A DNA stretch of 15,261 nt from a virus (taxonomy: Duplodnaviria > Heunggongvirae > Uroviricota > Caudoviricetes): positions 1 to 15,261 of IMG/VR virus record IMGVR_UViG_2545824644_000012. One strand, written 5' to 3'. The notes below the pieces were generated by a model. That model was not told where the DNA came from, did not search any database, and worked only from the letters and a program-made list of their open reading frames with translations. The stretch's first letter is position 1; the number at the start of each line of letters is the position of its first letter. Below, in pieces: positions 3,989 through 11,749 of the stretch. The position numbers were made by a program, and so were the translations under genes.

Positions 3989-4177
3989 TTATCCAGCCGG
4001 TGTTTCGTTATTCAGGTACAGCGATACTTTTTTTACCGGGAGGCATTCACCGGGGATTTTTTGTTCGTCCCTTACCTGAATGCAGGATGACTTACTGTCA
4101 TAAATTCCGGTAATCACATTCTGCGGCTCACCCGTTATAAGAAAAACGGTCATCACCAGTGCAAATGCTGAAGTCAT
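3989..4177 (-). CDS. ydfD: YdfD-like small lysis protein (Qin ydfD homologue)
   Basis: 62-aa ORF with hydrophobic N-terminus (MTSAFALVMTVFLITGEP) and EQKIPG.C.PV.KV pattern recalled from Qin YdfD; GGAG 7 nt upstream; ATG overlaps the dicB stop (ATGA). Confidence 0.6.
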   Translation of the reverse strand: MTSAFALVMTVFLITGEPQNVITGIYDSKSSCIQVRDEQKIPGECLPVKKVSLYLNNETPAG

Positions 4178-4362
4178 TGACGTTCTCCGAAAATACCAAG
4201 TTTAATAAGGGCAATTCGGGAAAGAATGGAATTATCATTGAGCAGATAAGGCTCATATTTCCGCATATTAATGGCATCCTCAGTAAACGCTTTATTACTG
4301 AGCAGAACACCAATATCAAAACAACCTTCAGACGTATTAACGTTTGGTAATAACGTTTCCAT
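4174..4362 (-). CDS. dicB: Cell-division inhibitor DicB homologue
   Basis: 62-aa ORF; N-terminus METLLPNVNTSEGCFDIGV..FTEDAIN.RK matches recalled K-12 DicB (MKTLLPNVNTSEGCFEIGV...FTEDAINKRK); GAGGA 7 nt upstream of the ATG; same length as DicB. Confidence 0.75.
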   Translation of the reverse strand: METLLPNVNTSEGCFDIGVLLSNKAFTEDAINMRKYEPYLLNDNSILSRIALIKLGIFGERQ

Positions 4363-4379
4363 TATCGCGTCCTCAACAA

Positions 4380-4535
4380 TGAATTTTGTGATGCAGTGCC
4401 TGGTGCCTCCAGGTGACGTTAACCAGTTAACAATTAACGCCGGATTGTTAGTTGATGTCTGTTACGCAAGTAAAAGACCGCTTGTTTTAACTGTTCCGCG
4501 TGCGCATAGCCGCATTCACCGCATCACAAAATTCA
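4380..4535. repeat. Near-perfect 19-bp inverted repeat pair (tGAATTTTGTGATGC(a/g)GTG) separated by about 118 bp
   Basis: Plus strand 4380-4398 tgaattttgtgatgcagtg; reverse complement of 4517-4535 is tgaattttgtgatgcggtg (18/19 identical). Lies between the DicF-like element and the dicB ribosome-binding site. Confidence 0.8.
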
Positions 4536-4539
4536 CTTT

Positions 4540-4579
4540 AAAAAGGGCGGATATCCATTTCCGCCGAATCACCAGAAAA
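4540..4579 (-). ncRNA. dicF: DicF-like small RNA (shortened variant) with intrinsic-terminator 3' end
   Basis: Minus strand reads UUUCUGGUGAUUCGGCGGAAAUGGAUAUCCGCCCUUUUU. The 5' UUUCUGGUGA and the GGCGG...CCGCCC stem plus U-run resemble recalled DicF (UUUCUGGUGACGUUUGGCGG...GCCGCCC). Position immediately upstream of dicB matches Qin gene order. Boundaries approximate. Confidence 0.45.
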
Positions 4580-4941
4580 GTGATAACAGAGGTTGTTGTG
4601 GCTGGGGTGTCACTTAAGCGTATGGTCAACCTGACAACCCGGTGTCCTCAACGGGGGAAGGAATAACCCCGCCATACTTACCGCCGCGCCATTTCGCGGA
4701 TTACCACAACCGGAAGCGCACGATCGAATTAAATTTAACGACGACCTATACAGAGAGACGAACTTCGCCGTGCGCTTTCGTGTTGTGTGCCTGCTTTAAC
4801 CACGTCAGGCGAGGTGGACTCGTTATTCCCCAACAACAAGGATCTTGTTAATCTGGATATCCACAACAAGAATAAGAGTATTCAGAGTGATCGCTGAATT
4901 AACGGCAGCAATGGCGGCTATTCCTTAATTACCAGGCATCA

Positions 4942-5094
4942 TTAGTCAGAGTTTCTTGCTAACCAGCGATGCGCGCCAGCTTCGGTTTTAAACGTTTTAC
5001 TTTTGGTATACGTCATCGCGGTAAACGTGCCGTCCTGGTTGGGGAAGACGCCGCACACCAGAGATTCATTGTTGCCAAGATTGAGCATATCCAT
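4942..5094 (-). CDS. DUF1391-like small protein (YdfA/YdaF family)
   Basis: 50-aa ORF below the track length cutoff: MDMLNLGNNESLVCGVFPNQDGTFTAMTYTKSKTFKTEAGAHRWLARNSD; GAGG 4 nt before the ATG; first gene downstream of the leftward promoter, as ydfA is in the Qin dicB operon. Family assignment from memory. Confidence 0.55.
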   Translation of the reverse strand: MDMLNLGNNESLVCGVFPNQDGTFTAMTYTKSKTFKTEAGAHRWLARNSD

Positions 5095-5272
5095 GTTGAC
5101 CTCATTTACCCTTAACGCCGGGTCGCGGAACTAAAAACCTGCTGCGCTGTTATACAAAGTGTTCCCGCCGTCATGTTCATACGCCTCGGGCTGGCTACTT
5201 AACCCCTGACCACTGCCTGGTAACTCGAAGTATTGCCCTGCGTTCTGTGGGGCGGGGTGGGTTGATGAATAT

Positions 5273-5310
5273 AATCTACAAGTAAAAACTGTTTGATGTC
5301 AACAATAAAT
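5273..5310 (-). promoter_or_regulatory. Leftward sigma70-type promoter (-35 TTGACA, 18-bp spacer, -10 TAGATT) overlapped by a repressor operator
   Basis: Minus strand: TTGACA is the reverse complement of 5297-5302 and TAGATT of 5273-5278. Plus strand 5283-5310 contains aaaaaCTGTT-N7-AACAAtaaat, the same half-site pattern as the palindrome in the repressor/cro intergenic region. Confidence 0.5.
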
Positions 5311-5366
5311 AACTGTCATTTTGGACGAAGAAAACTCCCTCATCAGTGGGAGCAAAAGCGGTGGGC

Positions 5367-5654
5367 TTAAAGATTAGCGGGGAATTGTCGACGGGCGTGA
5401 ACCACGTTTACAATTTCAATACCTGAAGTTGTCACCCGGTACAAAATTATGTAATTGGGGTGAGCCACAATCTCGCGCAAACCTGGCACTCTGTCGCTTG
5501 GCGGATATAAATACGGATGTTCGGATAACGGCAGGACGCAAGCTCTTAAGCGTTGCCATAAGCGTTCTGCCGCATCTATGTCGAAACGGGCAATATAACT
5601 AGTTATATCATCCAGATCGGTATCTGCGCTTTCAAGCCATAACACGGGTAACAT
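5367..5654 (-). CDS. parE2: ParE/RelE-family type II toxin (ParE2-like)
   Basis: 95-aa ORF starting directly after the antitoxin stop (TAA-ATG); RelE/ParE-like size and sequence; partner of a PaaA2-like antitoxin. Confidence 0.8.
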   Translation of the reverse strand: MLPVLWLESADTDLDDITSYIARFDIDAAERLWQRLRACVLPLSEHPYLYPPSDRVPGLREIVAHPNYIILYRVTTSGIEIVNVVHARRQFPANL

Positions 5655-5846
5655 TTACTGCTCTCTCCGTTCCTTGCGAATTTTGGCAAAGCGTTCTGCC
5701 ATTCTGCGCTCAACTTCATCATGTGGAATAGCAGGACGTGGATCAGCAAGGCTTGCGGCTACTTTTGCGCGTAACCATTCGTTATAACTGTTTTCTTGCT
5801 CAACGGTTTCAAATTCAGAAACCATTGGTGAAAGGGCTGTATTCAT
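5655..5846 (-). CDS. paaA2: PaaA2-like antitoxin (63 aa)
   Basis: Using the internal Met gives MNTALSPMVSEFETVEQENSYNEWLRAKVAASLADPRPAIPHDEVERRMAERFAKIRKERREQ, near-identical to the recalled E. coli O157 PaaA2. AGGAGG 6 nt upstream of this ATG; the longer track ORF (to 5909) would overlap the repressor gene. Confidence 0.85.
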   Translation of the reverse strand: MNTALSPMVSEFETVEQENSYNEWLRAKVAASLADPRPAIPHDEVERRMAERFAKIRKERREQ

Positions 5847-5875
5847 GACATACCTCCTCTTACAGGTGGTAGAGA

Positions 5876-6277
5876 TTACGCTCGGTGCCCCTTTTGGGCT
5901 GCGATCCACCGAGCAACAGTTTCTTCCATTGACTTTTTCTTATTTTTTATTTCCTGAAGCATTTTTTCTTGGTCTTCATCGGGAAATGCACTAAAAGCTT
6001 GGAGCAATTCACGTTGGCGAGGGCCAATTTTCATCGTGTCAGGAGTAAAAATTTGCTCTCCCTCTTCTGGAGGTAATAAAAACCAATGTAGTGGATGCCC
6101 TGTAACCTCGACCAACTTATCTAAGCTGGAGGCTTTAGGTGTGGCTTTTCCACTGACCCATTGCTGAACAGTTTGCTGTGTCACACCGACTCTACGAGCA
6201 AGTTCAGCTTGGCTCCATCCTGTTTCTTTGAGGAGCCTGCTAATTCTGTACATAGATACTTCTAGGGCCTTCATCAT
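5876..6277 (-). CDS. paaR2: HTH (XRE-family) repressor, DicA/PaaR2-like; probable prophage repressor
   Basis: 133-aa ORF with helix-turn-helix (SQAELARRVGVTQQTVQQW); divergent from a Cro-like gene across an operator-containing intergenic region; immediately upstream of the PaaA2/ParE2 pair on the same strand. No Shine-Dalgarno upstream, so possibly leaderless like lambda cI. Confidence 0.7.
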   Translation of the reverse strand: MMKALEVSMYRISRLLKETGWSQAELARRVGVTQQTVQQWVSGKATPKASSLDKLVEVTGHPLHWFLLPPEEGEQIFTPDTMKIGPRQRELLQAFSAFPDEDQEKMLQEIKNKKKSMEETVARWIAAQKGHRA

Positions 6278-6288
6278 TATTCGATTTT

Positions 6289-6347
6289 ACAGGTAAATAC
6301 TGTTAAAAGCACCACAATAAAAAACTGTTGATCATGAACAGTTTTTT
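6289..6347. promoter_or_regulatory. Operator region between divergent repressor and cro-like genes
   Basis: 6319-6347 aaaaaaCTGTTgatcatgAACAGtttttt has perfect 11-bp inverted arms around a 7-bp spacer; a second ACAG-N7-CTGT element lies at 6289-6303. Divergent promoters were not resolved confidently. Confidence 0.5.
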
Positions 6348-6385
6348 ATTGTAGCCTTTATCTATGAACTTCAGAGGAGGGCAAC

Positions 6386-6646
6386 ATGCTCAATAGCACC
6401 CGTGAAAAAATTAAGCAGAAATACACACAGGCTGAAATAGGACGCTATATGGGAGTAACCCAACAAACTGTTTGGCAATGGTTTAGCTTGGGTATTCCTC
6501 CCAAACAGGTAATCCCTTTATGCCAACTAATGCAGTGGGGGGTTACTCCTCACGAACTCCGACCTGATATTTATCCTAACCCAACAGACGGCTTGCCTGC
6601 TGAGTTTCAGACTAGCACACAGCCAGCGACGGGAGTTGATTCATGA
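6386..6646 (+). CDS. Cro-like HTH regulator (YdaS family)
   Basis: 86-aa ORF; GAGGAGGG Shine-Dalgarno; motif GVTQQTVWQW..GIPP...ELRPD typical of YdaS/Cro-like proteins; divergent from the repressor. Confidence 0.7.
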   Translation: MLNSTREKIKQKYTQAEIGRYMGVTQQTVWQWFSLGIPPKQVIPLCQLMQWGVTPHELRPDIYPNPTDGLPAEFQTSTQPATGVDS

Positions 6647-7068
6647 AAATCAAGCATGAGCACATCCGCATGGCGATGAATGCCTGGGCATATCCTGACG
6701 GTGAGAAAGTTCCCGCAGCTGAAATAGCCCGGACTTATTTCGAACTGGGGATGACGTTCCCGGAACTGTACGACGACACTCATCCTGAGGCCCTGGCTCG
6801 TAATACCCAGAAAATTTTCCGTTGGCTGGATAAAGACACCCATGATGCTGTTGAAAAAATTCAGGCTCTGTTACCGGCGATCGAAAAGGCGATGCCGCCT
6901 TTGCTGGTGGCCCGTATGCGCAGTCACAGTTCTGAGTACTACCGGGAGATTGTCGAACGGCGGGATCGGCTGGTGAAGGATGTCGACGATTTTGTTGCGT
7001 CAGCGGTCGTTTTGTATGACCAGATAAATCGCGGCGGCCCGGCAGGGAATGCTGTGGTGATGCACTAA
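6643..7068 (+). CDS. YdaT-family protein (CII-like regulator / putative toxin)
   Basis: 141-aa ORF beginning MKIKHEHI, as recalled for Rac YdaT; ATG overlaps the cro-like stop (ATGA), matching the ydaS-ydaT arrangement. Confidence 0.6.
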   Translation: MKIKHEHIRMAMNAWAYPDGEKVPAAEIARTYFELGMTFPELYDDTHPEALARNTQKIFRWLDKDTHDAVEKIQALLPAIEKAMPPLLVARMRSHSSEYYREIVERRDRLVKDVDDFVASAVVLYDQINRGGPAGNAVVMH

Positions 7069-11418: not shown

Positions 11419-11593
11419 TGCAGCGGGTGCTTGAGGCTATCTGCCTCGGGCATGAACACCAACGGCAGATAGAGAAAAGCCCCAGTTAACATTACGCGTC
11501 CTGCAAGACGCTTAACATTAATCTGAGGCTCAATCCATGCTGAACACATGTAGGTTAGCCTCTTACGTGCCGAAAGGCAAGGAGAAGCAGGCT

Positions 11594-11749
11594 ATGAAGC
11601 AGCAAAAGGCGATGTTAATCGCCCTGATCGTCATCTGTTTAACCGTCATAGTGACGGCACTGGTAACGAGGAAAGACCTCTGCGAGGTGCGAATCCGAAC
11701 CGGTCAGACGGAGGTCGCTGTCTTCGTAGACTACGAATCTGAGAAGTAA
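11594..11749 (+). CDS. hok: Hok/Gef-family type I toxin (HokD/RelF-like)
   Basis: 51-aa ORF MKQQKAMLIALIVICLTVIVTALVTRKDLCEVRIRTGQTEVAVFVDYESEK with the Hok signature; AAGGAG upstream. The in-frame upstream ATG at 11537 (track ORF) would add a 19-aa extension. Confidence 0.85.
   Translation: MKQQKAMLIALIVICLTVIVTALVTRKDLCEVRIRTGQTEVAVFVDYESEK

What the first reader, a model, noticed from the sequence alone, without database searches (positions are those of the whole stretch)
5367..6277. Three-component PaaR2-PaaA2-ParE2-like toxin-antitoxin module sitting at the prophage repressor position
The HTH regulator is divergent from a Cro-like gene across an operator-bearing intergenic region, which is the cI position. 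It is followed on the same strand by a PaaA2-like antitoxin (strong ribosome-binding site, 29-nt gap) and a ParE-family toxin. The repressor and the toxin-antitoxin pair therefore look like one lysogeny-expressed unit, in the slot lambda uses for rexAB. This could couple prophage maintenance or superinfection exclusion to toxin activity.
Basis: partly seen in the sequence, partly recalled or inferred. Interest (0 to 1): 0.6.

Follow-up and report, generated by a model that had tools for sequence, protein, structure and literature searches.

The report
Known prophage repressor–toxin–antitoxin operon, recombinant allele
This is a new, rare recombinant copy of an already published arrangement in E. 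coli lambdoid prophages, in which the prophage's repressor gene is followed in one operon by the PaaA2 antitoxin and ParE2 toxin; it is real but ordinary.

Summary
Three minus-strand genes lie at 5367-6277. They are an HTH regulator (133 aa), a PaaA2 antitoxin (63 aa, 90% identical to the O157:H7 protein) and a ParE2 toxin (95 aa, about 95% identical). They are divergent from ydaS (Cro-like) and ydaT (CII-like) across a 108-bp region.

Jurenas 2021 showed PaaR2 acting like CI, YdaS like Cro and YdaT like CII. Prolic-Kalinsek 2023 states that paaA2-parE2 replace rexAB.

What differs here is the regulator. Its DNA-binding domain is unlike PaaR2 (21% identity); only the C-terminal domain is shared (53%). 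It is DicA-like and 91-92% identical to the regulator of a second O157 locus, presumably CP-933M. It comes with its own Cro and its own operators. These are five 15-bp ACARNNAAANACTGT sites, three at OR and two at an OL/PL-like promoter. They are invariant in relatives and absent from CP-933P.

The window is therefore a heteroimmune recombinant. This combination occurs in 2 of 5426 complete E. coli genomes. Superinfection exclusion remains untested. Novelty and interest are low.

The parts
5367..5654 (-). parE2-type toxin gene (95 aa)
   Evidence: Pfam ParE_toxin E=9.4e-17. It matches PDB 5cw7 ParE2 at E=2e-58. Global identity to EDL933 CP-933P ParE2 is 91.6%, against 66-68% to type-1 loci.
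5655..5846 (-). paaA2-type antitoxin gene (63 aa, no DNA-binding domain)
   Evidence: Pfam PaaA2 PF21217 E=1.1e-20, the only domain found. It matches PDB 3zbe PaaA2 at E=1.5e-33. Identity to EDL933 PaaA2 is 90.5%.
5853..5858 (-). Shine-Dalgarno AGGAGG of paaA2, inside the 29-nt gap after the regulator stop
   Evidence: Read directly from the sequence.
5876..6277 (-). Repressor gene at the cI position (133 aa): a DicA-like HTH N-terminal domain joined to a PaaR2/DicA-type C-terminal domain, with no S24 peptidase domain
   Evidence: Pfam HTH_3 E=2.8e-13 and Phage_CI_repr E=3.7e-6, with no Peptidase_S24 match. NCBIfam DicA PRK09706 E=5.5e-14 over residues 11-127, below the curated cut-off. The best PDB match is the 434 repressor HTH. 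Identity to regulators of type-1 loci is 91-92%. Identity to PaaR2 is 21% in the N-terminal part and 53% in the C-terminal 53 aa.
6284..6289 (-). PRM-like -10 hexamer TAAAAT, 6 nt upstream of the regulator ATG (6277), so a leaderless mRNA is predicted
   Evidence: Read directly from the sequence. No Shine-Dalgarno sequence lies upstream. Leaderless translation was shown for paaR2 (PMC8630535). For this locus it is an inference.
6289..6303 (+). Operator-like site OR-a (ACAGGTAAATACTGT), next to the PRM-like -10
   Evidence: Pattern search. Invariant in four loci.
6314..6328 (+). Operator-like site OR-b (ACAATAAAAAACTGT), centred about -44 from the predicted PRM start and abutting the PR-like -35
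6338..6352 (-). Operator-like site OR-c (inverted copy of ACAATAAAAAACTGT), in the spacer of the PR-like promoter
6328..6357 (+). PR-like promoter TTGATC-18 nt-TAGCCT driving ydaS-ydaT (weak -10; assigned by its similarity to the PL-like promoter)
   Evidence: A 44-nt inverted repeat, 70% complementary, links 5261-5304 and 6326-6369. The scan tool did not call this promoter, so it is inferred.
6386..6646 (+). ydaS, a Cro-like HTH gene (86 aa) of the same immunity type as the repressor
   Evidence: Pfam YdaS_toxin E=2e-11. Identity to type-1 YdaS is 70-72%. There is no BLASTP hit to CP-933P YdaS.
6636..6653 (+). YdaT operator OM, TTGATTCATGAAAATCAA, spanning the ydaS stop and the ydaT start
   Evidence: Exact match to TTGATT-N6-AATCAA, with 0.07 expected. 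This site was footprinted in CP-933P (PMC9986795). It is invariant in four loci.
6643..7068 (+). ydaT, a CII-like activator gene (141 aa)
   Evidence: Pfam YdaT_toxin E=3.5e-11. Identity to CP-933P YdaT is 92.9%.
5334..5353 (-). Terminator-like hairpin followed by a T-run, 14 nt after the parE stop
   Evidence: The count of such sites is not above chance for the region, so this is weak evidence.
5273..5302 (-). PL-like promoter TTGACA-18 nt-TAGATT, reading leftward into DUF1391 and dicB
   Evidence: 10 of 12 consensus positions matched.
5278..5292 (+). Operator-like site OL-a (ACAAGTAAAAACTGT), overlapping the PL-like -10 and spacer
   Evidence: Two equivalent sites occur in L002.
5302..5316 (+). 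Operator-like site OL-b (ACAATAAATAACTGT), abutting the PL-like -35

Best explanation
The locus is the immunity region of a lambdoid (Rac/Qin/CP-933P-like) E. coli prophage, and a PaaA2-ParE2 toxin-antitoxin pair rides on the repressor transcript.

The 133-aa DicA-like repressor is inferred to bind five 15-bp operators. Three lie between the divergent promoters (OR) and two lie at a leftward PL-like promoter (OL). Through them it would shut off ydaS-ydaT and the replication genes on the right, and the DUF1391-dicB operon on the left. It would also autoregulate its own, probably leaderless, PRM-type transcript.

That transcript is inferred to continue across a 29-nt gap into paaA2 and parE2, and to end at a hairpin 14 nt after parE. 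YdaS would compete for the same operators, as Cro does. YdaT would bind the conserved TTGATT-N6-AATCAA site at the ydaS/ydaT junction and activate a PRE-like leftward promoter, as CII does.

From work on the archetype, PaaA2 is a labile, DNA-binding-free antitoxin degraded by ClpAP and ClpXP. ParE2 is a stable toxin that sits on the nucleoid and induces SOS. The pair therefore works as an addiction cassette that penalises loss of the immunity region.

Shown here by computation: the gene identities, the layout, the operator motif and its conservation, and the mosaic origin. Inferred by homology to CP-933P: binding, co-transcription, the leaderless start and addiction.
For: The layout, gap and ribosome-binding site come.

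The operator motif is found 7 times against 0.17 expected, and 5 of the 7 lie exactly at the OR and OL positions. The three OR sites are invariant in four loci that are otherwise only about 79-87% identical, while the spacer between two of them varies. The same motif occurs at 3 OR and 2 OL sites in L002. It is absent from CP-933P, which has a different repressor N-terminal domain and a different Cro. Operators, repressor DNA-binding domain and Cro therefore co-vary.

The PL-like promoter matches 10 of 12 consensus positions. The YdaT operator is an exact match and is invariant. No S24 peptidase domain is present, as reported for PaaR2 (PMC8630535). The regulator matches DicA over its full length.

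Experimental precedent for the same architecture is in PMC8630535 (EMSA and footprints, promoter fusions, 5' RACE, bistability, mini-F stabilisation) and PMC9986795 (YdaT footprint).
Against: Nothing was measured for this allele. The regulator's DNA-binding domain is not homologous to that of PaaR2, so operator binding is inferred only from motif position and conservation.

The PR-like -10 (TAGCCT) is poor, and the scan did not call PR or PRM. The terminator-like site is no more than chance would give.

In the archetype the TA genes were transcribed appreciably in both switch states, so expression is not strictly confined to lysogeny (PMC8630535). In the 99.95%-identical prophage of strain OkiPb01678, ydaS is annotated as frameshifted and late genes are disrupted. 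The switch may therefore no longer control a viable phage.
Confidence: 0.85

Rival explanations
1. The HTH protein is only the dedicated transcriptional regulator of the toxin-antitoxin pair, in effect a 'split antitoxin' DNA-binding module. On this view it is not the prophage's master repressor, and the divergent ydaS-ydaT genes are unrelated neighbours.
For: PaaA2 has no DNA-binding domain, so a separate regulator is needed. The system was first described as a three-component TA (Hallez 2010, as cited in PMC8630535 and PMC3141249).
Against: The same 15-bp sites also sit on a second, PL-like promoter about 1 kb away. That promoter drives DUF1391-dicB, not the TA. The regulator resembles the prophage repressors DicA, 434 cI and the Gifsy-1/2 repressors. 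Regulator and TA alleles recombine independently. The archetype PaaR2 represses PR and PL more readily than its own promoter (PMC8630535).
Confidence: 0.05
2. The toxin-antitoxin pair is an independent selfish cassette with its own constitutive promoter. It merely landed downstream of the repressor gene, so its expression is not coupled to the lysogenic state.
For: The mosaic map shows that the toxin-antitoxin specificity core (about 5480-5720) has a different ancestry from the flanking regulator and operators. In CP-933P the reporter placed after parE2 was expressed in both switch states (PMC8630535).
Against: Only 29 nt separate the regulator stop from the paaA2 start, with no terminator between them. 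The only promoter-like hit on this strand near the TA lies inside parE itself, at 5635-5607, and hit counts for the region are at chance level. The R-A-E order and spacing are kept in every locus examined: L002 to L006 and the near-identical L001. Earlier expression studies reported one operon for paaR2-paaA2-parE2 (cited in PMC8630535).
Confidence: 0.1
3. The pair acts mainly as an abortive-infection or superinfection-exclusion system, analogous to lambda RexAB, which is triggered by an incoming phage.
For: It occupies the same position as rexAB (layout; stated in PMC9986795). TA systems in general can provide phage defence (general knowledge).
Against: The toxin and antitoxin match no PADLOC defence model. 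There is no homology to RexA or RexB. No ParE2 activation was detected in the archetype apart from post-segregational killing (PMC8630535).
Confidence: 0.08

Closest known systems
paaR2-paaA2-parE2 with ydaS-ydaT, the immunity region of cryptic prophage CP-933P, E. coli O157:H7 EDL933 (Hallez 2010; Jurenas 2021, PMC8630535; Prolic-Kalinsek 2023, PMC9986795)
   Same: The gene order and orientation are the same (R-A-E leftward, ydaS-ydaT rightward). PaaA2 is 90.5% identical, ParE2 about 92-95% and YdaT 93%. The YdaT operator is identical. The regulator's C-terminal domain is homologous (53%). Neither regulator has a peptidase domain. Both loci have a PL-type promoter with operators beyond the toxin gene.
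   Different: The regulator's N-terminal DNA-binding domain is unrelated (21% identity; 133 aa against 123 aa). YdaS is not detectably similar by BLASTP. The operators differ entirely: ACARNNAAANACTGT here, against the GTTTAGTAA-type repeats of CP-933P. The intergenic region is 108 bp against 97 bp. The toxin has three extra C-terminal residues. At the DNA level, homology to CP-933P breaks off at the paaA2 start (5847) and resumes at the ydaS/ydaT junction (6632).
The second O157:H7 three-component locus, presumed to be paaR1-paaA1-parE1 of CP-933M (mentioned in PMC8630535), and its relatives in UPEC and STEC strains (L002, L005, L006)
   Same: The regulator is 91-92% identical and YdaS 70-72%. 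The three OR operator sites are invariant. The layout is the same, and DUF1391 lies downstream.
   Different: The antitoxin (65-70%) and toxin (66-68%) belong to the other allele. The antitoxin's C-terminal half and the toxin's N-terminal half are only 43-60% identical at the DNA level. I could not check the names PaaR1, PaaA1 and ParE1 or the CP-933M assignment against the original paper, which is not held.
DicA/DicC/dicB operon of the Qin prophage, E. coli K-12
   Same: The regulator matches the DicA model over its full length (E=5.5e-14). Downstream lies a ydfA-like DUF1391 gene followed by dicB.
   Different: The score (52 bits) is below the curated DicA cut-off (101 bits). From my own knowledge of the K-12 map, Qin has no TA pair between dicA and ydfA. 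That was not tested here.
Lambda cI-rexA-rexB / OR / cro-cII
   Same: The functional layout matches. It has a leftward repressor operon with passenger genes, a tripartite OR with about 24-25 bp centre-to-centre spacing, an OL/PL cluster, and a probably leaderless repressor mRNA.
   Different: There is no sequence homology to Rex or CII. The regulator has no RecA-cleavable S24 domain. The passengers are a type II TA pair, not RexAB.

Membership tests
PaaR-PaaA-ParE three-component toxin-antitoxin systems | A ParE-family toxin closely related to ParE2 | tested here: met
   PF05016 E=9.4e-17. PDB 5cw7 E=2e-58, about 95% identity over 93 aa.
PaaR-PaaA-ParE three-component toxin-antitoxin systems | A PaaA2-family antitoxin without a DNA-binding domain, encoded immediately upstream of the toxin | tested here: met
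   PF21217 E=1.1e-20 is the only domain found. PDB 3zbe E=1.5e-33. The antitoxin stop abuts the toxin start.
PaaR-PaaA-ParE three-component toxin-antitoxin systems | A third gene for an HTH regulator upstream on the same strand (order R-A-E) | tested here: met
   HTH_3 E=2.8e-13. The gap is 29 nt and on the same strand.
PaaR-PaaA-ParE three-component toxin-antitoxin systems | The regulator is homologous to PaaR2 itself | tested here: inconclusive
   BLASTP gives 39.8% identity over 98 aa, E=1.4e-19. The similarity is confined to the C-terminal domain (53%), and the N-terminal DNA-binding part is only 21% identical. The regulator is 91% identical to that of the other O157 paralogue (L006).
PaaR-PaaA-ParE three-component toxin-antitoxin systems | The three genes are co-transcribed and repressed by the regulator; the antitoxin is degraded by ClpAP/ClpXP; the locus shows post-segregational killing | not testable with these tools
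   Known only for the CP-933P archetype (PMC8630535).
CP-933P-type lambdoid immunity region (CI/Cro/CII analogues) | Divergent repressor and Cro-like genes flank a short region with multiple operators that overlap both promoters | tested here: met
   The intergenic region is 108 bp. It holds three 15-bp sites spaced 25 and 24 bp apart. They are invariant in relatives.
CP-933P-type lambdoid immunity region (CI/Cro/CII analogues) | A second operator cluster lies at a PL-type promoter beyond the passenger genes | tested here: met
   TTGACA-18 nt-TAGATT on the minus strand at 5302..5273. Two operator sites lie at 5278-5292 and 5302-5316. No third site was found.
CP-933P-type lambdoid immunity region (CI/Cro/CII analogues) | YdaT (the CII analogue) is present with its TTGATT-N6-AATCAA operator at the ydaS/ydaT junction | tested here: met
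   PF06254 E=3.5e-11. Exact site at 6636-6653. The motif is defined in PMC9986795.
CP-933P-type lambdoid immunity region (CI/Cro/CII analogues) | The repressor mRNA is leaderless | not testable with these tools
   The sequence is compatible with it. TAAAAT ends 6 nt before the ATG and there is no Shine-Dalgarno sequence. The transcription start was not measured.
LexA/lambda-CI type SOS-cleavable repressors | A C-terminal S24 peptidase autocleavage domain | tested here: not met
   No Peptidase_S24 match among 19 Pfam hits. The C-terminal domain instead matches DicA and PaaR2.
DicA family (NCBIfam PRK09706) | A score at or above the curated cut-off for the DicA model | tested here: not met
   52.1 bits against a cut-off of 101 bits, although the match covers residues 11-127 at E=5.5e-14. 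The regulator is a relative of DicA, not a member by the curated criterion.
Lambda RexAB exclusion system / catalogued anti-phage defence systems | Homology to RexA/RexB or to any catalogued defence protein | tested here: not met
   There are no Rex families in Pfam and no PADLOC match for the toxin or antitoxin. The regulator's PADLOC matches fall mainly on its HTH region.

The most novel reading that the evidence does not exclude
The window is a natural hybrid. A toxin-antitoxin 'specificity core' of the CP-933P type (the antitoxin's C-terminal half plus the toxin's N-terminal half) sits inside an immunity region of the other type (regulator, operators, Cro, DUF1391).

If the TA polices recombination in the immunity region, as Jurenas et al. 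proposed, such hybrids record the escape routes that are allowed. Either the two antitoxin types cross-neutralise, or TA cores are exchanged only as complete interface units. The locus would then offer a concrete test of TA-driven constraint on the evolution of phage immunity regions. Alternatively, the swapped core may change which superinfecting phages trigger the toxin.
Probability: 0.12. Interest if true: 0.45.

Novelty: new member of a known kind. Interest (0 to 1): 0.15.

Why it matters
It matters little beyond annotation. The locus shows that the published arrangement of a TA pair on the prophage repressor operon is not peculiar to CP-933P. It exists in at least two heteroimmune versions whose regulator/operator/Cro set and TA core recombine independently.

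This gives a predicted operator sequence (ACARNNAAANACTGT) for the widespread second immunity type. DNA related to this regulator was found in 509 of 5426 complete E. coli genomes. The locus is also a natural recombinant that could be used to test the hypothesis that the TA stabilises the immunity region.

It also warns against the misleading database labels 'toxin YdaS/YdaT' and 'RelB family antitoxin' that are attached to these genes.

Tried and rejected
1. I looked for a solved PaaR2-like structure. Only HTH-domain hits were found (434 repressor, HipB and others), and nothing covered the C-terminal domain.
2. I tried to read Hallez 2010 to check the PaaR1/PaaA1/ParE1 names. The paper is not held, so the CP-933M/'type 1' assignment rests on a sentence in PMC8630535 and on genome positions.
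3. A first operator pattern was one base too long and found nothing meaningful. It was corrected.
4. I considered the long palindrome 6314-6352 as a single operator or a bidirectional terminator. I rejected this because its centre varies among relatives while the two 15-bp arms are invariant.
5. I considered a LexA box in CTGT-N9-ACAG (6325-6341). I rejected it because the spacing is one base longer than CTGT-N8-ACAG and the spacer is not conserved.
6. I tested whether the conserved 150-nt leader after the PL-like promoter is a structured RNA. It has no Rfam hit and folds no better than shuffles (z=+1.45).
7. The PADLOC scan for a defence role gave no toxin or antitoxin match.
8. I did not run structure prediction or the large protein-database searches, because they could not change the verdict.

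Full report
**What is in the sequence.**
Three ORFs lie head to tail on the minus strand. They are a 133-aa protein at 5876-6277, a 63-aa protein at 5655-5846 and a 95-aa protein at 5367-5654.

Pfam assigns them to HTH_3 (E=2.8e-13, with a weaker Phage_CI_repr match), PaaA2 (PF21217, E=1.1e-20) and ParE_toxin (PF05016, E=9.4e-17). Against solved structures, the toxin aligns to ParE2 of E. coli O157:H7 (5cw7, E=2e-58). The antitoxin aligns to PaaA2 (3zbe, E=1.5e-33).

The regulator stop (5878-5876) and the paaA2 start (5846-5844) are 29 nt apart, and an AGGAGG lies 6 nt before that ATG. The paaA2 stop is directly followed by the parE start.

On the other strand, 108 bp away, a YdaS-family HTH gene starts (6386-6646, PF15943, E=2e-11). 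It is followed by ydaT (6643-7068, PF06254).

**Where it comes from.**
The whole 15.3-kb window is 99.95% identical to a prophage inserted at ompW in E. coli OkiPb01678, a bovine isolate from Okinawa.

Transferring that annotation gives this order: integrase, excisionase, exonuclease, DUF1482, dicB, DUF1391, the three genes of interest, ydaS, ydaT, replication genes, hok/sok, rusA and an antiterminator.

In that strain the prophage is about 47 kb. It has an ISEc12 in a tail assembly gene and several pseudogenes, so it is probably defective there.

**Is the interpretation new?**
No. [quoted passage not shown] Jurenas et al. 2021 (PMC8630535) reported the following:
- PaaR2 sits at the cI position and is translated from a leaderless mRNA.
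- PaaR2 and YdaS footprint on the 97-bp intergenic region and repress PRM, PR and a PL promoter.
- YdaT activates a PRE-like promoter.
- The locus is bistable, and the whole region stabilises an unstable mini-F plasmid.
- No ParE2 activity was detected in either transcriptional state.

Prolic-Kalinsek et al. 2023 (PMC9986795) state that paaA2-parE2 replace rexA-rexB and that PaaR2 replaces CI. They define the YdaT operator as TTGATT-N6-AATCAA.

**How this copy differs.**
I fetched the EDL933 CP-933P locus (L003) and compared proteins.

| Protein | Identity to CP-933P counterpart |
|---|---|
| PaaA2 | 90.5% |
| ParE2 | about 92-95% |
| YdaT | 92.9% |
| Regulator, whole length (global) | 34% |
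| Regulator, N-terminal DNA-binding part | 21% |
| Regulator, last 53 residues | 53% |
| YdaS | no BLASTP hit |

At the DNA level, homology to CP-933P stops at the paaA2 start codon (5847) and resumes at 6632, which is the ydaS/ydaT junction.

The regulator is instead 91-92% identical to the regulator of another R-A-E locus. That locus is present in UPEC and STEC strains, and at a second site in O157:H7 genomes (L002, L005 and L006). It is presumably the CP-933M paralogue mentioned in PMC8630535, though I could not verify the naming. In those loci the antitoxin and toxin are only 65-70% identical to the window's.

A sliding-window comparison shows a patchwork:
- DUF1391, the OL/PL region, the regulator, OR and most of ydaS are 'type 1'.
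- The antitoxin's 3' half plus the toxin's 5' half (about 5480-5720), and the 3' part of ydaT, are 'type 2' (CP-933P-like).

The full combination was found in only 2 of 5426 complete E. coli genomes. By comparison, 634 genomes hold paaA2-parE2-like DNA and 509 hold this regulator type.

The regulator matches the NCBIfam DicA model over its full length (E=5.5e-14, though below the curated cut-off). PaaR2 matches that model only in its C-terminal domain. The regulator also resembles the Gifsy-1/2 repressors (31% identity) and the 434 repressor HTH. It has no S24 peptidase domain.

**Operators and promoters.**
Repeat analysis and pattern search reveal a 15-bp motif, ACARNNAAANACTGT. It occurs 7 times in the window against 0.17 expected, and 0 of 200 shuffles reached 7. 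Five copies are placed as follows:
- Three at OR: 6289-6303, 6314-6328, and an inverted copy at 6338-6352. Their spacing is 25 and 24 bp.
- Two at 5278-5292 and 5302-5316. These overlap a good leftward promoter, TTGACA-18 nt-TAGATT.

This reproduces lambda's OL/PL position beyond the passenger genes.

The OR sites are invariant in four loci, while the spacer between two of them drifts. The motif recurs at the same five positions in L002. It is absent from CP-933P. Operators, repressor DNA-binding domain and Cro type thus co-vary, which is the signature of a heteroimmune immunity cassette.

On the minus strand, TAAAAT (6289-6284) ends 6 nt before the regulator's ATG, with no Shine-Dalgarno sequence. 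This is compatible with a leaderless PRM-type mRNA as in paaR2, but it is an inference. The middle operator is centred about 44 bp upstream of that start, close to where lambda OR2 sits relative to PRM. That last comparison rests on my own knowledge.

The YdaT operator is present as an exact match at 6636-6653 and is invariant in both types.

A hairpin with a T-run lies 14 nt after parE. It is weak evidence, at chance level.

**Mechanism proposed.**
The DicA-like repressor would bind OR and OL. It would repress ydaS-ydaT and replication rightward, and DUF1391-dicB leftward. It would also autoregulate a transcript that carries paaA2-parE2.

YdaS would compete at the same sites. YdaT would boost leftward transcription from the ydaS/ydaT junction.

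The TA pair would act as an addiction cassette that penalises loss of the region.

The gene identities, layout, motif statistics, conservation and mosaicism are shown here. Binding, co-transcription, the leaderless start, toxicity and addiction are inferred from the archetype.

**Rivals.**
1. A pure 'split antitoxin' role for the regulator is unlikely. Its sites also sit on the PL-like promoter, and regulator and TA alleles reassort.
2. An independent TA promoter cannot be excluded. The archetype's TA is expressed in both switch states. However, the 29-nt gap, the absence of a terminator and the conserved R-A-E spacing argue for an operon.
3. A RexAB-like exclusion role has no support. The toxin and antitoxin have no PADLOC match and there is no homology to Rex proteins. 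It remains untested.

**Verdict.**
This is a real feature and a correct reading, and it describes a known system. The window adds a rare recombinant allele and a predicted operator for the second immunity type. Interest is low.

Noticed in passing
window 11425-11749: A hok/sok type I toxin-antitoxin locus. Rfam sok matches at 11425-11599 (+) with 113.5 bits. A Hok/Gef CDS is annotated at the matching position in the near-identical record. It is a second addiction-type module in the same prophage.
   Followed up: partly
window 3989-5094 (minus strand): The operon downstream of the PL-like promoter looks like the Qin dicB operon. It has a DUF1391/ydfA-like gene (4942-5094), dicB (4174-4362) and DUF1482 (3989-4177). 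A sub-threshold match to sRNA family STnc100 lies at 4330-4547 (33.4 bits against 47, E=2.8e-5), roughly where dicF would sit.
   Followed up: partly
window 5110-5265: This non-coding leader of about 150 nt, just downstream of the PL-like promoter, is 88-98% identical in both immunity types. The promoter and operators next to it are type-specific. It has no Rfam hit and folds no better than shuffled sequence (z=+1.45). The reason for its conservation is unexplained.
   Followed up: partly
window 6600-6646: The 3' end of ydaS differs from type-1 loci by a 1-nt indel. The protein therefore ends ...GVDS*, as in CP-933P, and overlaps ydaT by ATGA. PGAP labels the 99.95%-identical copy in OkiPb01678 'frameshifted', but the HTH part is intact. 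It looks like a recombination junction rather than decay.
   Followed up: partly
L007 (NZ_AP042495.1 3462000-3506000): In the closest genome the prophage occupies the ompW site, with an ompW fragment at the far end. It carries three tRNA genes after the antiterminator region. It also has an ISEc12 insertion in tail assembly gene T and several frameshifted or truncated late genes.
   Followed up: no
window 6325-6341: CTGT-N9-ACAG, formed where two inverted operator copies meet, resembles a LexA box, but the spacer is one base too long. In this window only, the spacer contains a GATC (Dam) site inside the PR-like -35. Relatives have TGATTGTGT or TGATTGCAT instead.
   Followed up: partly
L004 (Escherichia phage Evi, LR597642.1 24332-25192): A 40-kb deposited phage genome carries a CP-933P-type R-A-E module plus ydaS-ydaT. 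Its ParE is 94.6% identical to the window's, and the gene is unannotated in that record. The arrangement is therefore not confined to chromosomal prophages such as CP-933P. Whether Evi forms infectious particles was not checked.
   Followed up: no
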